Below are positions 3,965 to 19,580 of a stretch of DNA of 20,000 bases, piece by piece. The stretch is from IMG/VR virus record IMGVR_UViG_3300008117_000258. One strand, 5' to 3'. Origin of the DNA: an uncultured virus (IMG/VR IMGVR_UViG_3300008117_000258). Taxonomy: Duplodnaviria > Heunggongvirae > Uroviricota > Caudoviricetes. Both the position numbers and the translations under genes were made by a program. The notes beneath the pieces were generated by a model, which was given only the letters and a program-made list of their open reading frames with translations, was not told the origin of the DNA and made no database searches. Each line of letters begins with the position of its first letter. Within the stretch, counting starts at the first letter, position 1.

Positions 3965-3967
3965 AAG

Positions 3968-4039
3968 TACCCCTGGCAGGATTTGAACCTGCGACCTACA
4001 CCTTAGAAGGGTGTCACTCTTCCACTGAGTTACAGAGGT
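3968..4039 (-). tRNA. tRNA-Arg(TCT)
   Basis: Cloverleaf; anticodon arm ACACC-CTTCTAA-GGTGT; T-loop TTCAAAT. Confidence 0.93.
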
Positions 4040-4040
4040 T

Positions 4041-4115
4041 TGGAGCCTTCTGTCAGGATTGAACTGACGACATCTCGCTTACAAGGCGAGTACTCTACCA
4101 CTGAGTTAAGAAGGC
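4041..4115 (-). tRNA. tRNA-Thr(TGT), CCA encoded
   Basis: Anticodon arm CTCGC-CTTGTAA-GCGAG; acceptor GCCTTCT/AGAAGGC. Confidence 0.95.
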
Positions 4116-4116
4116 G

Positions 4117-4188
4117 CATCTCCAGAGAGAATTGAACTCTCGTTTACACCGTGAAAGGGTGTTGTCCTAACCACTAGACGATGGAGAC
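4117..4188 (-). tRNA. tRNA-Glu(TTC)
   Basis: Anticodon arm ACACC-CTTTCAC-GGTGT; acceptor GTCTCCA/TGGAGAT. Confidence 0.93.
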
Positions 4189-4189
4189 T

Positions 4190-4265
4190 TGGCTGGTCTG
4201 GCAGGCTACGATCCTGCGACTTCCGAATTAACAGTTCGGCACTCTACCAACTGAGTTACAGACCA
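4190..4265 (-). tRNA. tRNA-Asn(GTT), CCA encoded, non-canonical T-loop
   Basis: Anticodon arm CCGAA-CTGTTAA-TTCGG; T arm GCAGG-ATCGTAG-CCTGC. Confidence 0.9.
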
Positions 4266-4269
4266 ATAG

Positions 4270-4343
4270 TACAACAGGTAGGACTTGAACCTACGATAAC
4301 CGAATTATGAGTTCGGGGCCTTGACCAACTTGGCTACTGTTGC
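4270..4343 (-). tRNA. tRNA with CAT anticodon (Ile2 or elongator Met)
   Basis: Anticodon arm CCGAA-CTCATAA-TTCGG; no initiator GGG/CCC stem. Confidence 0.9.
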
Positions 4344-4507
4344 TTGTTAATTATATTATATCCTGCATTATCTAGGTTGTCAACTATTGCATTAACAATA
4401 ACTTCATAATCTATTTCCATAATAAAATGATTTTCTATCTTGTGCATGTTTATTGCAATTGGTGCATGATGTTGCAATGATTTAGATATTATTTCTTTGT
4501 AATCCAT
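4334..4507 (-). CDS. Hypothetical protein, 57 aa
   Basis: MDYKEIISKSLQHH...; ATG overlaps the TAA of 4507..4770; 3' end overlaps the tRNA by 10 nt. Confidence 0.5.
   Translation of the reverse strand: MDYKEIISKSLQHHAPIAINMHKIENHFIMEIDYEVIVNAIVDNLDNAGYNIINKQQ
4355..4383 (-). promoter_or_regulatory. Consensus sigma70/SigA promoter for the tRNA cluster
   Basis: TTGACA-17nt-TATAAT ending 11 nt upstream of the first tRNA. Confidence 0.85.
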
Positions 4508-13806: not shown

Positions 13807-14036
13807 TATGCAATCATATCCTCTGCCACTGACAAAAGGTGGCGGGTATTATAAATCTCAGCCTCTTTAGTCCTATAGAAATGAGGCTCTTCTTGCTCAT
13901 CTACCTCAATAGAATAAACTTCAGCGCTATAAGCATAGTCCTCGTAATTCCAGCCTTCTTGTTCTGCTGCGGCTTCATCTTCTGCCTCAACTTCCATGAA
14001 GTACTCAACAATCACTTTAACATCATAAATGGGCAT
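13806..14036 (-). CDS. Hypothetical acidic protein (VEAEDE.AA motif)
   Basis: AAGGAG RBS. Confidence 0.7.
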   Translation of the reverse strand: MPIYDVKVIVEYFMEVEAEDEAAAEQEGWNYEDYAYSAEVYSIEVDEQEEPHFYRTKEAEIYNTRHLLSVAEDMIA

Positions 14037-14615: not shown

Positions 14616-14830
14616 GCTATTTCCTTTTCATAGGCAGGTAGGCTTACTACCGTCAATTCTAGCATTTCATCAGGGTATCTGTCAACTACCCAGTTCAGGG
14701 CTTCCCCAGCAGTTTTGAAATCAGTAGCAGTACTACTAGTTCCATAACCATTAATGGTGGCTTCCCAGCAATCAGTCCCACCTGGTGAGACAGAATAGTT
14801 CATTTCATATATTGCTACTTGTTTGGTCAT
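14612..14830 (-). CDS. Hypothetical protein
   Basis: Leaderless ATG 6 nt after TATAAT (14837-14842). Confidence 0.7.
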   Translation of the reverse strand: MTKQVAIYEMNYSVSPGGTDCWEATINGYGTSSTATDFKTAGEALNWVVDRYPDEMLELTVVSLPAYEKEIA

Positions 14831-14836
14831 ATTAAT

Positions 14837-14865
14837 ATTATAGTGGTTTGGACTGACATCTGCAA
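14837..14865 (-). promoter_or_regulatory. TGTCAG-type promoter
   Basis: TTGCAG-A-TGTCAG-N10-TATAAT. Confidence 0.8.
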
Positions 14866-14971
14866 GTCCCGTGAATTTTTTACTAAAGACCTTAATCATA
14901 AATAGTCCTCAGAAATATCATGATTTTTTCGACCCGCATTTTTATGCATTGCATTGCATTTTTATTTATTG

Positions 14972-15045
14972 CGATCCGTACGGGACTTGAACCCGTGACC
15001 TCTACCGTGACAGGGTAGCGAACTAACCAACTATTCTAACGGACC
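14972..15045 (-). tRNA. tRNA-Asp(GTC)
   Basis: Anticodon arm CTACC-CTGTCAC-GGTAG; acceptor GGTCCGT/ACGGATC. Confidence 0.93.
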
Positions 15046-15051
15046 AAATGG

Positions 15052-15078
15052 TGAGCAGTTTTAATTCATGCTCAGGAA
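15052..15078 (-). ncRNA. H-type pseudoknot motif copy
   Basis: TTC-CTGAGCAT-GAA-TTA-AAACTGCTCA. Confidence 0.65.
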
Positions 15079-15084
15079 ATTGTA

Positions 15085-16101
15085 TCATGCTAGTTGCATA
15101 ACATTCTGCACAACTTTTAGCAGACGATTTTTTTCTGCGTTGATAGCAGGGTCAAATCCACTTGCACTTGCAAGGATAGATTCGTTATTGCCACCACGAG
15201 CAGAACGGTACCAGTCAAGGCGCTCAGTAAGTGCATTGAAAGCGCCCCATGCAGAGCCAGCAATCATGCCGTTAAATTCGCCAGTGTAAATGTCGTTGAT
15301 AATATCAACTTTATTTTCCCACTTCTTGACCGCACCCTTAGCGTCTTTCTCAGGCTTAGGATAAGCAGCAAGAATGATGTCGTTGAATTGCTTAGCAGAA
15401 ACTTCTTTCTCAATCATAGCCTTAGCCATAATATCAAATTCGTCCATGTAAGTATTAGCAAGACCAAGAGTCTCACGAGCAATCTGCACTTTACCATTGG
15501 CAGTCTGCGTGTGGCGAATCTTGAATGATTGCTTGACACCATTCTTCTTCTTGCGTGAGCCTAGTGCAAGATTAAGAGTGTTAGCGCACACAACACGAAC
15601 GGGTGTTATGCTTGCTTGAATAGCGATTGAGCCATCGTGTGATGTGTTGATGAGCAAATAAGTCTTTACCTTATCTGCAACACCGCTAGGGTCTAGGATT
15701 GTTTCACGCTCTAATGCAAGAGAGCCGAATACAACACGACCACCCTTGATTGCGCCTGCGGTTTCCCAACGACCACCGCCGTCTAGGATATTATCACCGA
15801 ATGAGAATAAATCTTCATTCTGCAATACATGATAGCGCTCACCAACTACACCAAGAATATCAGTCTGGGTGTTATCGGTAGGATTTGTACGCAAAACATA
15901 TTGGTATGCCTTGTCGCTAGTTAGATGTGATGGGGTTTCCAAATCCTCTAAGCGAACATTCCAACCGTTTAGATTTGCTGCTTCCAACATTTCTGCGGTT
16001 GTTTTTTCCTCAGTGAATACGGTACCCAATCCATGCCATGCTGGTTCACGGAAAGATGCAAAAGATGTCTTACCGTTTTGTGTTTCTAGGTCATGTGCCA
16101 T
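15085..16101 (-). CDS. DUF932 (phage/plasmid-like) protein
   Basis: PAWHGLG, LGVVG..Y...QN...F, ETAG...GG, YLL..SHDG, TPVRVVCANTL, RHT and WGA.NA.TE motifs. Confidence 0.92.
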   Translation of the reverse strand: MAHDLETQNGKTSFASFREPAWHGLGTVFTEEKTTAEMLEAANLNGWNVRLEDLETPSHLTSDKAYQYVLRTNPTDNTQTDILGVVGERYHVLQNEDLFSFGDNILDGGGRWETAGAIKGGRVVFGSLALERETILDPSGVADKVKTYLLINTSHDGSIAIQASITPVRVVCANTLNLALGSRKKKNGVKQSFKIRHTQTANGKVQIARETLGLANTYMDEFDIMAKAMIEKEVSAKQFNDIILAAYPKPEKDAKGAVKKWENKVDIINDIYTGEFNGMIAGSAWGAFNALTERLDWYRSARGGNNESILASASGFDPAINAEKNRLLKVVQNVMQLA

Positions 16102-16131
16102 GAGTGTTTCTCCTTTTTGTTTGTTTATACA

Positions 16132-16160
16132 ATCATAACATGACCCACCGACAAATGCAA
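16132..16160 (-). promoter_or_regulatory. TGTCRG-type promoter
   Basis: TTGCAT-T-TGTCGG-N10-TATGAT. Confidence 0.8.
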
Positions 16161-16201
16161 ATCAGGATAGTTAAATAGGGGTAAATCGGACATTTTGGGG
16201 G

Positions 16202-16217
16202 TGTGATCAATCTCACG
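16202..16217. promoter_or_regulatory. CRP/GlxR-like site
   Basis: TGTGA-N6-TCACG. Confidence 0.6.
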
Positions 16218-16263
16218 TAATCGTAACTTGACAATGACTGGTCATTCGGGTCGAAAAATTTAT

Positions 16264-16429
16264 TAAGCCTTTTTCCATCATGCTTAGGATGTATGGGTTC
16301 TTACACCTGCCCAATAAGGTGGCTCTATAGTATTTCTATTATCGCCCTAATCAGCCTGGCGAAAAGTGAGCAGTTTACGTGGCCGTGCTCAGGGCCCTTA
16401 CCTAGTTTAAAGACATTCGGCATGTCTTT
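16264..16429 (-). ncRNA. Array of five back-to-back H-type pseudoknots
   Basis: Units at 16399-16429, 16367-16396, 16321-16362, 16292-16321 and 16264-16291. Each is a stem-loop plus A-rich linker plus a tail complementary to its own loop. Confidence 0.7.
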
Positions 16430-16447
16430 TCATAGCCCCCTATGAAA

Positions 16448-16867
16448 TTAGTAGTCAACCTCGTCATAGTTAGTATCTACAACGTTTGAATCTTCATTCA
16501 TGAGTTCAACGTGATATGAATTTACATTGAATTCAATTGTTGACAATATGTCATCAATATCCTCACCTGATTCAACACATATGGTAAATGTGTGGTCTAC
16601 GGTCATAGTAACGTCATAGTTCTGTGATAACGTGAAGTCGCCAATCTTTGCAAGCGCTTGGGCCTGCTCCATGGAGATATTCTCTTCATTAAGTTCACTG
16701 CGGGTCCAGTCCTTGAGATCTTCCTTAAGTCTATTAAGTGCTGCTGCAGTGTTCATGTCCCGCTGTGCAAGACGTGCATGTGATTCTTCTAGTTGAGTAA
16801 TACGCAATGTGGCCTTGGCCAATTCATCACGTAGAAATGTCTCTGTTGCGTAGTTTACTGTATCCAT
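16448..16867 (-). CDS. Hypothetical protein (coiled-coil N-terminus, acidic C-terminus)
   Basis: ORF track. Confidence 0.75.
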   Translation of the reverse strand: MDTVNYATETFLRDELAKATLRITQLEESHARLAQRDMNTAAALNRLKEDLKDWTRSELNEENISMEQAQALAKIGDFTLSQNYDVTMTVDHTFTICVESGEDIDDILSTIEFNVNSYHVELMNEDSNVVDTNYDEVDY

Positions 16868-16872
16868 AGGGG

Positions 16873-17136
16873 TTATTCCATTTCTTTCTCTAGTTGTTCA
16901 AATTCTTTGATGGTATTAATCATCTCATCCATTTGGTCTTTTGTCAAGCACACATTTGATACTAGTGTGGCAGTAAGTGAGGCAAGGTGAGCAGAATAAC
17001 TCCAAATTGCCTCAATGAATTCTTGTTCTGTCATTGATTCACGATGTTCGCTAATCTTCTTTGCCATTAGCATTGTGCTGAAGTCTGTAACTGCGTCGCC
17101 AGTTGCTTCTTGAATTTGTATTGCGGTGGATATCAT
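16873..17136 (-). CDS. Hypothetical protein
   Basis: ORF track; downstream of the promoter at 17167-17195. Confidence 0.75.
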   Translation of the reverse strand: MISTAIQIQEATGDAVTDFSTMLMAKKISEHRESMTEQEFIEAIWSYSAHLASLTATLVSNVCLTKDQMDEMINTIKEFEQLEKEME

Positions 17137-17166
17137 GAGGGCCTGCTTTCTTTGTTGTTTAATATA

Positions 17167-17195
17167 AGTATATATCTCAGGACTGACAAATGCAA
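17167..17195 (-). promoter_or_regulatory. TGTCAG-type promoter
   Basis: TTGCAT-T-TGTCAG-N10-TATACT. Confidence 0.8.
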
Positions 17196-17235
17196 CTTAA
17201 ATACCCGTGAATCTTAAATAGTGAGACGTAAACCA

Positions 17236-17251
17236 TGTGAGAAAGATCACA
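17236..17251. promoter_or_regulatory. CRP/GlxR-like site
   Basis: TGTGA-GAAAGA-TCACA (perfect consensus). Confidence 0.65.
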
Positions 17252-17282
17252 CGGGTCGAAAAATTTTTGCGGGGAATTTAGA

Positions 17283-17309
17283 GAGCAGTTTAAACTCATG
17301 CTCAGGAGT
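17283..17309 (-). ncRNA. H-type pseudoknot motif copy
   Basis: ACTC-CTGAGCAT-GAGT-TT-AAACTGCTC. Confidence 0.7.
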
Positions 17310-17360
17310 ATCATCTCAGGGAACACTTGCTACAAGTAGCGTGGAGCGCAGAGATGAAAC

Positions 17361-17531
17361 TTACTTAGATGTTTTTACCATTGCAAAGCGGTGTGCGCCG
17401 TTTGCTAACTGTAATGAAACTCTAGTTAGTTTAGCGTTGATAGGAGTAAAGTTGCTAATGCGACCTGTAATTCCTGTCTTGCTTGTTGTGAATAGATCAC
17501 CGATTTGGTAAGTGTATCCGCCTAGTGTCAT
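17361..17531 (-). CDS. Small basic SH3/KOW-like beta-barrel protein, 56 aa; paralog of 18180..18341
   Basis: MTLGGYTYQIGDLFTTSKTGITGRISNFTPINAKLTRVSLQLANGAHRFAMVKTSK; GAAAGG RBS. Confidence 0.7.
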   Translation of the reverse strand: MTLGGYTYQIGDLFTTSKTGITGRISNFTPINAKLTRVSLQLANGAHRFAMVKTSK

Positions 17532-17569
17532 TTTGGGTCTTGCCTTTCTGTTGTGGTGGTTAAAGTTGG

Positions 17570-17599
17570 TGAGCAGTTTTAGTTGTCATGCTCAGGACA
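17570..17599 (-). ncRNA. H-type pseudoknot motif copy
   Basis: TGTC-CTGAGCAT-GACA-ACTA-AAACTGCTCA. Confidence 0.7.
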
Positions 17600-17614
17600 T
17601 TTCCCCGTTGGGAA

Positions 17615-18040
17615 TTATAGGTATCGTGCTACCGCATTGTATGTTGAGGTATTAACTGTTTCCTCATCTGTCATCTTGAGGATACGAATTGCATTTTGGA
17701 TTTCTTCCTTCTGCTCACGATATGTGTGCTGATGGATAACCTCAAAATCCTTAGTTGGCTCTGTTGGCAAATCCTTTTGGGATACTGTCAAATCAAAGTC
17801 AATGTTTAGATTGTTATTCCAAGAACGGAAGTTGGTTCTAAAGTTTTCTGCCTTAGAGATATTCTTGACGGCATAAGCAATAAGTTCCTTCTTATACTTA
17901 TCCCACTCTTTCTGATACTTTGCTTCATTTGCTTCTTGTGAGGCGTAGTCTGCCTCTAGTTTAGCAAGTGCGCCTTCTAGTGCCTTGATTACTTTAGGTG
18001 TAGCGATTTTAACGCTAATTGCTTTTCCTCTTGTTGCCAT
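17615..18040 (-). CDS. Hypothetical phage protein
   Basis: ORF track; promoter at 18074-18095. Confidence 0.8.
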   Translation of the reverse strand: MATRGKAISVKIATPKVIKALEGALAKLEADYASQEANEAKYQKEWDKYKKELIAYAVKNISKAENFRTNFRSWNNNLNIDFDLTVSQKDLPTEPTKDFEVIHQHTYREQKEEIQNAIRILKMTDEETVNTSTYNAVARYL

Positions 18041-18073: not shown

Positions 18074-18095
18074 ATTATAGGGGGTGGAACTGACA
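18074..18095 (-). promoter_or_regulatory. TGTCAG-type promoter
   Basis: TGTCAG-N10-TATAAT. Confidence 0.75.
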
Positions 18096-18179: not shown

Positions 18180-18341
18180 TTATGCCTTCCAAGTAGTCCA
18201 GCGTGGTGAGCCATTTACATCTAACTTGACACGAACTGTGTTCTTGTTAGTTGGCACGATTTCTACGATAGTGCCTGTAATCTTAGACTTCTGTGAAGTA
18301 TAAGTGTCGCCTACCTTGTATGTTGCTACGCCTACTGTCAT
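18180..18341 (-). CDS. Small basic SH3/KOW-like beta-barrel protein, 53 aa
   Basis: MTVGVATYKVGDTYTSQKSKITGTIVEIVPTNKNTVRVKLDVNGSPRWTTWKA; AAGGAG RBS. Confidence 0.75.
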   Translation of the reverse strand: MTVGVATYKVGDTYTSQKSKITGTIVEIVPTNKNTVRVKLDVNGSPRWTTWKA

Positions 18342-18371: not shown

Positions 18372-18400
18372 AGTCTAGCATTTTCTACTGACATTTACAA
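18372..18400 (-). promoter_or_regulatory. TGTCAG-type promoter
   Basis: TTGTAA-A-TGTCAG-N10-TAGACT. Confidence 0.8.
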
Positions 18401-18526: not shown

Positions 18527-19249
18527 TCACTTTTTGGTTGCGCTAAACACTATATCAGATTTCTCATAAATACACAACTTGCAGGTGGCGCATGCTGAGC
18601 CTTTTTGAGAGATAAGGGGAATAGCCTTTTTATTTTCAGGGCACTTAGCACCAGGCTTACCTGTTAGTGCCTTCATGTCTGCTTGCCCTATTAAGAAATT
18701 TTTGGCAAGGTATGCAAGGGATACGCCATGATTATTCTTGAGATCAATTCCCGTATCCTTATTCTCACTGTCTGTAGAATAGTATAAAGATAGATTAGGA
18801 ATGTCTTTAAGAATGAGCGCTGCAGATTTAACTCTTGTGTATACCCAGAATTGAATATCAGGATATTTATCCATAACTACTTTCCACGCATATGCGTAGG
18901 TATCGTTAAAGAAATCTCCGTCCCAGTGGATACGGAATAACTTTTGTGCATTGCGCTTATCACAATCTGCATTAAACTCATGAATCATTTCATTAAGTAG
19001 ACGGACCATTGTTTCTCCGTCTGCGTCTTTAAGTAGTTCCCAGTTATGAAGTAGGTTAACCTTTACTGTTGGGAATACCTTTTCCAACTTGCCTGCGTAG
19101 CAAATAGTTTCGCAGATAGACGTAGCACCAGGACATGAAAAGTTTTTTCCTGCGGGTAATCCGAATGTGTTTGCAATACTTGCTTGTTTTCCGTTAGGGG
19201 TGACGGCATTGGCTACTTTCCTATCTTTGCTTCTAAGTAATTTGGACAT
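18527..19249 (-). CDS. gp88-family protein (radical-SAM-like, Cys-rich)
   Basis: F.LPA..SCPGAT..C...CYA, FRIHWDGDF, FWVYTR and CP...C..C..C motifs. Confidence 0.8.
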   Translation of the reverse strand: MSKLLRSKDRKVANAVTPNGKQASIANTFGLPAGKNFSCPGATSICETICYAGKLEKVFPTVKVNLLHNWELLKDADGETMVRLLNEMIHEFNADCDKRNAQKLFRIHWDGDFFNDTYAYAWKVVMDKYPDIQFWVYTRVKSAALILKDIPNLSLYYSTDSENKDTGIDLKNNHGVSLAYLAKNFLIGQADMKALTGKPGAKCPENKKAIPLISQKGSACATCKLCIYEKSDIVFSATKK

Positions 19250-19255
19250 GGTGGA

Positions 19256-19402
19256 TTACTCACTTTCTTTTTCTCTTTCTAATCTTAACATTAGGGACTG
19301 ACATTTCTTGCGGTTGTATTTCTTTTTATTTGGGATCGCTGAGGCAGCATTAGAACGGCGAAGTTCCATAAGTCTACGTAATTCCTCAGATGTTTTTTTC
19401 AT
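19256..19402 (-). CDS. Small basic protein, 48 aa
   Basis: MKKTSEELRRLMELRRSNAASAIPNKKKYNRK...; preceded by TTGTAT-17-TAGTAT-N5-ATG. Confidence 0.65.
   Translation of the reverse strand: MKKTSEELRRLMELRRSNAASAIPNKKKYNRKKCQSLMLRLEREKESE
19282..19303 (-). promoter_or_regulatory. TGTCAG-type promoter
   Basis: TGTCAG-N10-TAAGAT upstream of the gp88-like gene. Confidence 0.7.
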
Positions 19403-19580
19403 ACTTAATACTATCAGATTTAGGGGAAAAATACAAGTCTACGTAAAACGGACATTGCGGACAAAAGGGGCGGGTCGAAATTTTTATTCGTCTAAATCTA
19501 CATACACATATAAATCAACATATGCATCGTGTGCAAGTATTAGCGTATCACGTTCACCATATGTATCAGTAGCAGTCATT

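What the first reader, a model, noticed from the sequence alone, without database searches (positions are those of the whole stretch)
16264..16429. Back-to-back array of five H-type RNA pseudoknots in a phage 3' UTR
Seen on the minus strand, directly after the stop of 16448..16867 and an 8-bp hairpin: (A) AAAGACA-TGCCGAA-TGTCTTT-AAACTA-GGTA; (B) GGCC-CTGAGCAC-GGCC-ACGTAAAC-TGCTCA; (C) TCGCC-AGGCTGATTAG-GGCGA-TA-[ATAG-AAATA-CTAT]-AG-AGCC; (D) CACCT-TATTGGGC-AGGTG-TAAGAA-CCCA; (E) CATC-CTAAGCAT-GATG-GAAAAAG-GCTTA. Each 28-42 nt unit has a stem, an A-rich linker and a tail complementary to its own loop, and units are at most a few nt apart. B and E share a type; A, C and D differ in sequence. Established: type III toxin-antitoxin antitoxins (ToxI, antiQ, CptI) are tandem pseudoknots of similar size, and phage phiTE uses pseudo-ToxI repeats to escape ToxIN. 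Inference: this is a cassette of RNA modules that could act as antitoxin mimics or decoys, aptamer-like sponges, or exonuclease blocks. I do not recognise it as a described element.
Basis: partly seen in the sequence, partly recalled or inferred. Interest (0 to 1): 0.88.

Follow-up and report, generated by a model that had tools for sequence, protein, structure and literature searches.

The report
Gene-end RNA pseudoknot array in phage
Behind one phage gene lie four real, tiny RNA pseudoknots and one invariant sequence block; two of the knots belong to an uncatalogued family that many lake phages place just after stop codons or just before a tRNA, probably to shield message ends.

Summary
The sequence is as described at 16264-16429 (minus strand). 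Four of the five units (A, B, D, E) are real H-type pseudoknots. Both crossing stems are kept by compensatory changes in related phage contigs. The window alone holds 4 compact knots against 0.66 expected.

Unit C is a 42-nt, almost invariant block. Its proposed pairings are not supported.

B and E belong to a dispersed "CUGAGCA" family. It has 5 copies in the window and 281 in 79 related loci plus the window, all on the gene strand. A copy starts a median of 15 nt after a stop codon. In 66 of 79 loci a copy ends 2-8 nt before tRNA-Asp. Unit A is a diverged member; D is a second type.

Rfam has no match. The type III antitoxin reading fails: no tandem repeats and no toxin gene were found.

The closest known design is the coremin / xrRNA-WCC pseudoknot of eukaryotic RNA viruses.

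Most likely these are structural caps or roadblocks at message ends. That function is untested.

This scan noted the same family before on other genomes (e1-5956634, e1-6039286).

The parts
16428..16447 (-). 8-bp hairpin UUUCAUAG-GGGG-CUAUGAAA, starting directly after the TAA stop of gene 16448..16867
   Evidence: Read. In relatives the stem covaries (CAUAG/CUAUG, AGUAG/CUACU, GAUAG/CUAUC) while the GGGG loop is invariant.
16399..16427 (-). Unit A. H-type pseudoknot: S1 AGACA/UGUCU, S2 UGCC:GGUA, L3 UUAAACUA. A diverged member of the B/E architecture.
   Evidence: 18 sequences, S2 96.9% paired, pair 8-27 CG 11 / UA 3 / UG 2, pair 7-28 GU 10 / AU 3 / GC 3; in L026, L037, L061, L066 and L069 the same slot holds a canonical CUGAGCA knot.
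16367..16396 (-). Unit B. CUGAGCA-family pseudoknot: S1 GGCC/GGCC, L1 C, S2 UGAGCA:UGCUCA, L3 ACGUAAAC.
   Evidence: Model R1 hit at 16361-16400, E 0.0012. Orthologues show GGCC/GGCC changing to GGAC/GUCC.
16322..16363 (-). Unit C. Invariant block UUCGCCAGGCUGAUUAGGGCGAU.A.AGAAAUACUAUAGAGC. Not shown to be a pseudoknot; role unknown.
   Evidence: only two positions vary in 72 distinct copies and there is no compensation.
16294..16321 (-). Unit D. H-type pseudoknot of a second type: S1 CACCU/AGGUG, S2 UGGG:CCCA, L3 UAAGAA (family consensus YAARGAR).
   Evidence: 21 sequences, 100% of cells paired, 8 of 9 pairs with changes on both sides, 0 of 500 shuffles reach the score.
16264..16291 (-). Unit E. 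CUGAGCA-family pseudoknot with a compensated S2 (UAAGC:GCUUA): S1 CAUC/GAUG, L3 GAAAAAG.
   Evidence: R1 hit at 16258-16295, E 1.6e-10. Orthologues in L010, L012 and L055 carry UGAGCA...GGCUCA.
15052..15079 (-). CUGAGCA-family copy lying 5 nt after the TGA stop of the DUF932 gene and 6 nt before tRNA-Asp
   Evidence: R1 hit at 15046-15083, E 3.4e-14. Read. The same arrangement is found in 66 of 79 loci.
17282..17309 (-). CUGAGCA-family copy in the 3' UTR of gene 17361..17531, upstream of the next promoter
   Evidence: R1 hit at 17276-17313, E 6.5e-12. Read.
17570..17599 (-). CUGAGCA-family copy between gene 17615..18040 (stop 15 nt upstream) and gene 17361..17531 (start 38 nt downstream)
   Evidence: R1 hit at 17564-17603, E 1.4e-09. 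Read.
14971..15045 (-). tRNA-Asp, directly downstream of a pseudoknot copy (context)
   Evidence: ARAGORN and Rfam.
16132..16153 (-). Promoter of the DUF932 gene, TGTCGGTG-N8-TATGAT. It marks the 3' limit of the untranslated stretch that holds the array (context).

Best explanation
Shown: the stretch is the 3' untranslated end of a phage message. It carries a hairpin, four compact H-type RNA pseudoknots (A, B, D, E) and one invariant block (C).

Each knot has a 4-5-bp stem 1, a one- to three-base loop 1 (an invariant C in the B/E type), a 4-6-bp stem 2 made between the hairpin loop and the tail, and a 6-8-base A-rich loop 3.

B and E are copies of a family that these phages put a few bases behind stop codons or just in front of a tRNA.

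Inferred: the knots act in cis as small, mechanically tough plugs at message ends. After termination, or after RNase P has cut off the downstream tRNA, the knot is the last structure of the upstream message. It stops 3'-to-5' exonucleases from chewing into the coding part. Where a U-run follows, the same knot may also serve as the hairpin of an intrinsic terminator.

The A-rich loop 3 and the C of loop 1 would stabilise the fold by groove contacts, as in luteovirus frameshift knots. This step is an inference.

The tandem array in this window arose by recombination that joined two such 3' ends.
For: Structure is real and is RNA of the sense strand:
- Covariation in both crossing stems.
- 259 copies on the gene strand against 0 on the other strand in 80 loci.
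- 281 of 281 model hits lie on the gene strand.
- 22 U-G pairs at S2 pair 14-59 would be A-C mismatches on the other strand.

Position:
- 243 of 259 copies lie outside called ORFs.
- A knot starts a median of 15 nt after the previous stop codon (10th-90th percentile 5-51), and 159 of 241 start within 0-19 nt.
- The distance to the next start codon is loose (median 162, 35-263).
- Larger spacers are filled by a hairpin or another knot.
- In 66 of 79 loci the knot ends 2-8 nt before the 5' end of tRNA-Asp.
- In 4 of 80 other viral loci a tRNA starts 4-12 nt after the knot. RNase P cutting would therefore leave the knot as the 3' end.

Other support:
- U-rich tails follow 28 of 74 copies at the operon-end site and 18 of 80 copies elsewhere in viral contigs.
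- No canonical terminator is found in 15000-18000 (0 found, 2.2 expected).
- Each stem alone is weak (S1 from +1.2 to -7.3 kcal/mol, S2 from -1.9 to -5.4 kcal/mol for six of the seven knots; the register typed for E was off). The fold therefore needs both stems.
Against: - There are no transcript-end data. Only assembled contigs of RNA libraries could be laid, and they show neither ends nor strand.
- Stem 2, loop 1 and the AAA of loop 3 are far more conserved in sequence than a generic plug needs. C9, A12-A15, A23-A25 and G28-U30 are invariant in 106 copies. This points to a specific partner.
- The stems are short and A/U-rich, unlike usual 3' stabilisers.
- The family is confined to one small-gene block. 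All 5 window copies lie in 15046-17603 of 20 kb. The 5 hits in the 65-kb record span 6 kb. The 3-8 hits in complete 98-115-kb genomes are mostly clustered. General message caps would be expected genome-wide.
- The closest known analogue, coremin, blocks enzymes coming from the 5' side, not the 3' side (passages of PMC10321173).
Confidence: 0.4

Rival explanations
1. Prokaryotic counterpart of coremin-type exoribonuclease-resistant RNA. The knot stalls machines that arrive from the 5' side: the 5'-to-3' exonuclease RNase J of an actinobacterial host, or ribosomes. This would protect what lies downstream (the tRNA, the next cistron) or leave stable RNAs derived from the 3' UTR.
For: The design is the same as the coremin / xrRNA-WCC model (4-bp hairpin, single C as loop 1, loop-to-spacer stem 2, spacer GUUAAAC; passages of PMC10520033 and PMC10321173).
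- C9 is invariant here.
- L3 ends in AAAC in 145 of 173 copies, in UAAAC in 55, and in UAAAAC in 61.
- Unit A has UUAAACUA.
- The knots sit directly 5' of tRNAs and occur in tandem, as flaviviral xrRNAs do.
- The host is probably actinobacterial: the DUF932 protein's nearest cultured relatives are actinophages, and there are 7 PafBC-type promoters in the window. Mycobacteria have RNase J (abstract of PMC10119312 in the listing).
Against: - The loop does not fit coremin's YGAD or YGNNAD rule; here it is C-UGAGCA-N.
- The second hairpin that coremin needs for Xrn1 resistance follows only 25 of 173 copies (14.3 expected from shuffled flanks).
- Many copies are followed by a promoter, so nothing useful lies downstream on that transcript.
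- The position is tied to the upstream stop codon, not to the downstream gene.
- Ordinary frameshift pseudoknots do not stall Xrn1 (PMC10321173 passage).
Confidence: 0.2
2. Specific binding site, operator or decoy, for one trans-acting protein or RNA of the host or the phage. The protein reads the conserved stem 2, loop 1 and loop 3 face, and stem 1 is only a scaffold.
For: Stem 1 varies freely while the stem 2 sequence UGAGCA/UGCUCA, C9 and AAA are almost fixed across 106-173 distinct copies and in unrelated contigs. The copies are clustered in one block of small, probably early genes.
Against: No protein is shared (E <= 0.01) between the window's knot-bearing block and the knot-bearing block of genome G003. 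A phage-encoded partner next to the knots is therefore not evident. Unit D and unit A keep the fold with other stem 2 sequences. No candidate binder was identified.
Confidence: 0.15
3. Non-canonical intrinsic terminator. Stem 2, closed last and followed by a U-run, releases RNA polymerase, and stem 1 pre-organises it.
For: A U-rich tail follows 28 of 74 copies at the site before the DUF932 promoter and 18 of 80 copies in other viral contigs. Two bacterial-genome copies with a paired S1 (L260, L286) are also followed by T-runs. There are no canonical terminators in 15000-18000.
Against: 0 of 62 copies before tRNA-Asp and 1 of 123 other copies have a U-rich tail. In this window B is followed by only UUUU and then unit C. 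Stem 2 is short and not G+C-rich.
Confidence: 0.1
4. Antitoxin mimic or decoy of a type III toxin-antitoxin system.
For: The knots are pseudoknots of about 30 nt with A-rich linkers. This is similar in size to ToxI-type repeats, as described in passages of the review PMC5086642.
Against: - No tandem array of one repeat.
- No ToxN-like domain in the 37 ORFs scanned.
- The copies are dispersed behind different genes.
- Among 80 fetched bacterial or archaeal loci with the pattern, none held more than one match and only 7 have a paired S1, against 72 of 81 in viral loci.
- The family definition requires a repeat array, then a terminator, then a toxin gene (PMC5086642 passage).
Confidence: 0.03

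Closest known systems
Coremin motif (xrRNA-C) and its Watson-Crick variant xrRNA-WCC of plant, fungal and insect RNA viruses (PMC10520033 and PMC10321173; passages read)
   Same: Both are about 20-30 nt and lie in a viral 3' UTR. Both have a 4-bp hairpin, a single C as loop 1 that cannot be changed freely, a stem 2 between the hairpin loop and the spacer, and an A-rich spacer (G)UUAAAC. Here L3 ends in AAAC in 145 of 173 copies, and unit A has UUAAACUA. Both occur at gene ends and intergenic sites.
   Different: These are DNA phages of bacteria, not eukaryotic RNA viruses. Stem 2 is 6 bp of fixed sequence, not 3 bp. The loop does not fit YGAD or YGNNAD. The obligatory second hairpin is mostly absent (25 of 173 copies). 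No nuclease resistance has been tested.
Gene 32 mRNA pseudoknot of phages T2/T4 (review PMC3014915; passages read)
   Same: Both are compact H-type pseudoknots of a DNA phage with two coaxially stacked stems. The one-base loop 1 and roughly 7-base loop 3 geometry of the gene 32 knot is recalled and comes from no call.
   Different: The gene 32 knot is a single copy in a 5' leader and nucleates gp32 binding for translational autoregulation. The knots here are multi-copy and sit behind stop codons.
Luteovirus frameshift pseudoknots (BWYV, PLRV), as discussed in PMC10321173 (passages)
   Same: Size and architecture match. Loop 1 lies in the deep groove of stem 2 and the adenines of loop 3 lie in the minor groove of stem 1.
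   Different: The knots here lie after stop codons, with no slippery site and no downstream frame. After the DUF932 gene a tRNA gene follows.
Type III antitoxin RNAs (ToxI, CptI, TenpI, AntiQ) (review PMC5086642; passages)
   Same: Small pseudoknotted RNA units, sometimes borrowed by phages.
   Different: No tandem identical repeats, no adjacent toxin gene, and no processing evidence.
Intrinsic terminators and other 3' stabilising stem-loops of bacterial messages (general knowledge, recalled)
   Same: Placed just behind the stop codon. A subset is followed by a U-run.
   Different: The fold is a pseudoknot, not a G+C-rich hairpin, and most copies lack the U-run.

Membership tests
Classical H-type RNA pseudoknot (structural class) | Two helices in which the 3' strand of stem 2 pairs with the loop of stem 1, both maintained in evolution | tested here: met
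   Met for B/E, D and A. Not met for C.
Classical H-type RNA pseudoknot (structural class) | Loop lengths sterically compatible with coaxial stacking | tested here: inconclusive
   L1 is 1 nt over a 6-bp S2, L2 is 1-2 nt, and L3 is 6 nt in 133 of 173 copies over a 4-5-bp S1. This is judged compatible from recalled rules. No 3D model was made.
Type III toxin-antitoxin antitoxin (ToxI-like) | Tandem array of near-identical nucleotide repeats | tested here: not met
   Tandem Repeats Finder finds no array in 15000-17700. The units differ in sequence.
Type III toxin-antitoxin antitoxin (ToxI-like) | Rho-independent terminator and a ToxN/AbiQ/CptN/TenpN-type toxin gene directly downstream | tested here: not met
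   The downstream gene is DUF932. None of the 37 ORFs scanned against Pfam has a toxin domain. No terminator was found.
Type III toxin-antitoxin antitoxin (ToxI-like) | Cleavage of the precursor into units by the toxin | not testable with these tools
   Needs an experiment.
Coremin xrRNA-C / xrRNA-WCC | 4-bp hairpin 1 followed by a single pyrimidine (C, or U tolerated) as loop 1 | tested here: met
   S1 has 3 always-paired pairs plus a fourth paired in 84 of 106 copies. C9 is invariant in 106 of 106.
Coremin xrRNA-C / xrRNA-WCC | Loop consensus YGAD or YGNNAD (xrRNA-C), or a 3-bp Watson-Crick stem 2 (WCC) | tested here: not met
   The loop is C-UGAGCA-N. The second loop base is U, not G. Stem 2 is 5-6 bp.
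Coremin xrRNA-C / xrRNA-WCC | Conserved spacer GUUAAACUAC | tested here: inconclusive
   AAAC ends L3 in 145 of 173 copies and UAAAC in 55. Unit A has UUAAACUA in 11 of its 18 orthologues and UUAAACUG in 6. The spacer is similar, not identical.
Coremin xrRNA-C / xrRNA-WCC | Second hairpin directly downstream, needed for Xrn1 resistance | tested here: not met
   25 of 173 copies have a hairpin of at least 4 bp within 0-4 nt of S2b, against 14.3 (sd 3.2) in shuffled flanks.
Coremin xrRNA-C / xrRNA-WCC | Stalls a 5'-to-3' exoribonuclease | not testable with these tools
   Needs an enzyme assay.
Any Rfam 15 family (including the preQ1-I riboswitch, pistol and other small ribozymes considered from memory) | Match to the family covariance model | tested here: not met
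   Only tRNAs reach the gathering score in the window. Nothing relevant appears at E <= 10 in 16050-16500 or at E <= 5 in 14900-17700.
Intrinsic (Rho-independent) terminator | G+C-rich hairpin directly followed by a U-run | tested here: not met
   0 sites in 15000-18000. A U-rich tail follows only 29 of 259 family copies in the related loci.

The most novel reading that the evidence does not exclude
These knots are the first exoribonuclease-resistant RNAs of bacterial viruses. They would be a prokaryotic sister of the coremin/xrRNA-WCC fold that stalls the host's 5'-to-3' nuclease RNase J, and perhaps ribosomes. Tandem arrays like this one would then carve stable non-coding RNAs out of phage 3' UTRs, as flaviviruses and benyviruses do with Xrn1.
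Probability: 0.17. Interest if true: 0.9.

Novelty: new variant of a known kind. Interest (0 to 1): 0.74.

Why it matters
Small pseudoknots that resist molecular machines are well known in eukaryotic RNA viruses (frameshift knots, xrRNAs). No such dispersed, multi-copy family has been described for DNA phages, as far as my searches show.

This is a roughly 30-nt RNA module with unusually clean comparative support. It sits at a fixed place in gene architecture, behind the stop codon or in front of a tRNA.

If it is a nuclease or ribosome roadblock, it offers three things:
- a minimal, portable stabiliser for bacterial messages;
- a test of whether coremin-like folds are universal mechanical devices;
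- a handle on RNA decay in hosts that cannot yet be cultured.

The invariant 42-nt block C next to it is an unexplained, even more conserved element.

Tried and rejected
- Nested folding: the region is no more stable than shuffles on either strand (z = -0.43 and -0.48). This is uninformative for pseudoknots.
- blastn of the region against deposited phage genomes found no match.
- Model R1 on Streptomyces phage Jay2Jay, around its DUF932 gene, found no hit.
- RNA libraries: only Logan contigs with small shares were available. Laid on 14800-17800, they cover parts of the DUF932 gene and 17461-17765. Most of the array has no cover. One contig of a relative joins the end of the 141-aa gene, through 35 other letters, to the start of block C. 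This gives no ends, no strand and no proof of transcription.
Only 7 of 80 fetched loci have a paired S1. No host or antitoxin origin was found.
- tRNA-like 3' end: ACCA follows stem 2 in only 20 of 168 copies. Rejected.
- Plus-strand ORF 16293..16445 (50 aa): no Pfam match. It spans modules that lie apart in relatives. Rejected as a gene.
- Recoding at the upstream stop: the stops are mixed (TAA, TAG, TGA) and a tRNA or a promoter follows. Rejected.
- A window-wide scan for any compact knot has too high a background (20 on the gene strand, 12 on the other, 8.5 in shuffles).
- Canonical terminators are not enriched anywhere in the window (12 found, 12.0 expected).
- A first position script had a regex fault and was replaced.
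- Block C as a sigma-70 or PafBC-type promoter: I saw only weak hexamers by eye, it is a single copy per contig, and nothing was established.
- Literature: full-text searches found no description of this family. The 8,495 unnamed IMG/VR candidates of PMC10690425 are in supplements I did not open and may include it.

Full report
**What is there.** On the minus strand, gene 16448..16867 (139 aa, no family match) ends in TAA at 16448-16450. The 346 nt up to the ATG of the next gene (15085..16101, DUF932 / phrog_1221) are untranslated. They hold, in order:
- an 8-bp hairpin (16428-16447);
- a short repeated word, UUUUUCGACCCG;
- a CRP-like palindrome;
- the promoter of the DUF932 gene.

**Is it more than chance?** Ordinary folding says nothing (z = -0.43). 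A finder for compact H-type knots gives 4 non-overlapping knots (A, B, D, E) in the 176 nt. Dinucleotide shuffles give 0.66 +/- 0.71, and 1 of 500 reach 4.

**Relatives.** The DUF932 protein has 434 confirmed relatives in viral contigs. The 80 best loci were kept, at 91-100% protein identity. BLAST of the spacer against them shows that it is modular:
- Hairpin+A+B lies just upstream of the DUF932 promoter in many loci.
- C+D+E lies 600-1300 nt further upstream, behind the homologue of the window's gene 17615..18040. The homologue of gene 16448..16867 lies between the two modules.

The back-to-back array of this window is therefore a recombinant joining of two separate 3' ends. The joint is at ...CUCACUUUU/CGCC....

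**The B/E family.** B and E are copies of a dispersed element with this layout: [stem 1a, 4-5 nt, any sequence] C UGAGCA N [stem 1b] [A-rich, mostly 6 nt, ending AAAC or AAAAG] UGCUCA.
- A covariance model that encodes only stem 1 (R1) finds 5 copies in the window. All are on the gene strand, at 15046-15083, 16258-16295, 16361-16400, 17276-17313 and 17564-17603. There is nothing else in the 20 kb except one weak hit at 18590-18631 (E 0.03, inside the GP88-family gene) and chance-level matches (E >= 1.4).
- It finds 281 copies at E <= 0.01 in 79 loci plus the window, all on the gene strand.
- On 106 distinct gap-free copies the three inner pairs of stem 1 are paired in 106 of 106, with 54, 31 and 3 double changes.
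- On an alignment made by the model, which does not know stem 2, the core pairs of stem 2 read: 11-62 GC 100 / AU 7 / GU 2; 12-61 AU 108 / GU 1; 13-60 GC 109 / UA 1; 14-59 CG 83 / UG 22 / UA 3 / other 1. 0 of 500 shuffles reach the observed score, and slid partners drop to about 30% paired.
- The window's unit E (UAAGC:GCUUA) is itself a compensated variant of its orthologues (UGAGCA...GGCUCA).
- The many U-G pairs would be A-C mismatches on the other strand, so the fold is sense-strand RNA.

**Units A, D and C.**
- Unit D is a second knot type. In 21 orthologues 100% of cells are paired, 8 of 9 pairs change on both sides, and loop 3 keeps YAARGAR.
- Unit A is supported more weakly. Stem 2 is 96.9% paired, with CG changing to UA in 3 sequences and to UG in 2. 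In five loci its slot holds a canonical CUGAGCA knot, and it keeps the loop 3 UUAAAC. I read it as a diverged member.
- Unit C is different. It is 42 nt with only two variable positions in 72 distinct copies, and it occurs once per contig in more than 120 contigs. The few changes in its small hairpin and in its tail break the proposed pairs. It is a sequence-constrained element of unknown role.
- C heads a recurrent module: C, then the D knot, then the E knot, then a CCCCGCAAGGG hairpin, then a promoter.

**Where the knots sit.** A looser scan gave 259 copies on the gene strand of 80 of 80 loci and 0 on the other strand.
- 243 of 259 lie outside called ORFs.
- A knot starts a median of 15 nt after the previous stop codon, and 159 of 241 start within 0-19 nt.
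- The distance to the next start codon is loose (median 162).
- The direct spacer is 5-17 nt. Longer spacers hold a hairpin or another knot.
- After the DUF932 gene the knot is squeezed between the stop codon and tRNA-Asp. 79 of 80 loci have the tRNA, and in 66 of those 79 the knot ends 2-8 nt before it.
- In 80 other viral loci found by pattern, 72 of 81 matches have a fully paired stem 1. Four are followed by a tRNA within 4-12 nt, and 18 have a U-rich tail.
- U-rich tails follow 28 of 74 copies at the operon-end site, but 0 of 62 copies before the tRNA.
- The family is clustered. There are 5 hits within 6 kb of the 65-kb nearest record, and 3-8 hits, mostly in one block, in complete genomes of 98-115 kb. 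One of those genomes lacks DUF932. It shares no protein with the window's block at E <= 0.01.

**Host.** The nearest cultured relatives of the DUF932 protein are actinophages (Streptomyces phages such as Jay2Jay, 53% identity, with the gene near the left genome end). The window has 7 matches, all on the gene strand, to TGTCRGTG-N8-TANNNT, against 0.61 expected. That pattern is the PafBC (RecA-NDp) promoter form as I recall it and as earlier notes of this scan say. The passages I read in PMC6789036 name the motif but do not print it. An actinobacterial host is therefore likely but not shown.

**What it is not.**
- No Rfam family matches.
- It is not a type III antitoxin. By the review PMC5086642 (passages) that family is a tandem repeat array, then a terminator, then a toxin gene. 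Here there is no tandem repeat, no toxin domain in 37 ORFs, and the copies are dispersed.
- The sequence pattern in bacterial and archaeal genomes is at chance level. 7 of 80 fetched loci have a paired stem 1, against 72 of 81 matches in viral loci.

**Closest known design.** I read passages of PMC10520033 and PMC10321173.
- Coremin (GUCCGAAGACGUUAAACUAC) is modelled as a 4-bp hairpin, a single C as loop 1, a loop-spacer stem 2 (canonical in the WCC variant) and an A-rich spacer.
- It stalls Xrn1 and scanning ribosomes and promotes frameshifting.
- The phage knots share the plan, the invariant C, and the (U)UAAAC spacer (unit A has UUAAACUA).
- They fail the loop rule YGAD / YGNNAD, and they mostly lack the second hairpin (25 of 173 copies).
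- So they resemble coremin in design, but membership is not shown.

**Mechanism.** That the knots fold as described and are selected at gene ends is shown. What they do is inferred.
- I favour a cis-acting plug that protects the 3' end of the upstream message, with a terminator role where a U-run follows (0.4). The reason is that the element is tied to the stop codon and becomes the 3' terminus once RNase P frees the tRNA.
- The xrRNA-like 5'-side roadblock (0.2), a specific protein site (0.15) and a pure terminator (0.1) remain open.
- The fixed sequence of stem 2 and the restriction to one gene block are not explained by a generic plug.

**Status.** The scan has met the same family before on other DNA (e1-5956634, e1-6039286). 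My structural tests were made independently on this window's relatives.

I found no description of the family in four full-text searches. The unnamed candidate lists in the supplements of PMC10690425 were not opened.

Noticed in passing
window 13813-13834, 14837-14858, 16132-16153, 17167-17188, 18074-18095, 18372-18393, 19282-19303 (all minus strand): There are seven promoters of the form TGTCRGTG-N8-TANNNT (at most 1 mismatch), against 0.61 expected by chance; 0 of 200 shuffles reach 7. This is the PafBC / RecA-NDp promoter form of actinobacteria as I recall it, and as earlier notes e1-5977239 and e1-6027166 say for other lake phages. It suggests an actinobacterial host and use of its DNA-damage switch.
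   Followed up: partly
window 17236-17251 and about 16202-16217 (minus strand): CRP/GlxR-like palindromes (TGTGAtctttcTCACA; GTGAgattgaTCAC) lie about 50-70 nt upstream of two of these promoters. Similar sites appear in related loci (L034; several loci).
   Followed up: no
window 16247-16261, 17252-17266, 19471-19480 (minus strand); 14925-14936 (plus strand): A repeated word (AAA)UUUUUCGACCCG lies just behind the last knot and before the CRP-like site. It has four copies in the window. Its role is unknown.
   Followed up: no
window 16322-16363: Block C is a 42-nt sequence almost invariant across more than 120 viral contigs, one copy per contig, always at the head of the C-D-E module. It is far more conserved than the neighbouring genes or promoters. 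It has no family match and no supported structure.
   Followed up: partly
window 17361..17531 and 18180..18341 (minus strand): Two small paralogous proteins (56 and 53 aa, both with a YxxGD...ITG... pattern) are each followed by a structured 3' end. Neither has a family match.
   Followed up: no
window 16363/16364 joint; L034 1457-2350: The gene order around the knots differs between relatives. The C-D-E module follows the 141-aa gene in most loci, but in this window it follows gene 16448..16867. Joints fall at the shared knots or U-runs, so the repeated knots may serve as recombination points that shuffle small-gene cassettes.
   Followed up: partly
L260 (Lacticaseibacillus songhuajiangensis contig) and L286 (Candidatus Parcubacteria MAG), position about 2501-2530 of each locus: These are two of the few bacterial-genome matches with a paired stem 1. 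Both are followed by a T-run, like a terminator. They may lie in prophages. Their context was not examined.
   Followed up: no
window 3967-4343 and 4355-4383 (minus strand): A cluster of five tRNA genes (Met, Asn, Glu, Thr, Arg) sits 1-3 nt apart behind a perfect TTGACA-17-TATAAT promoter. No knot copy lies there, unlike at tRNA-Asp.
   Followed up: no
record G001 33507-33544, about 800 nt beyond the window's high end: A further strong copy of the knot family (E 9.8e-13) lies outside the window, so the knot-bearing block extends past 20000.
   Followed up: no
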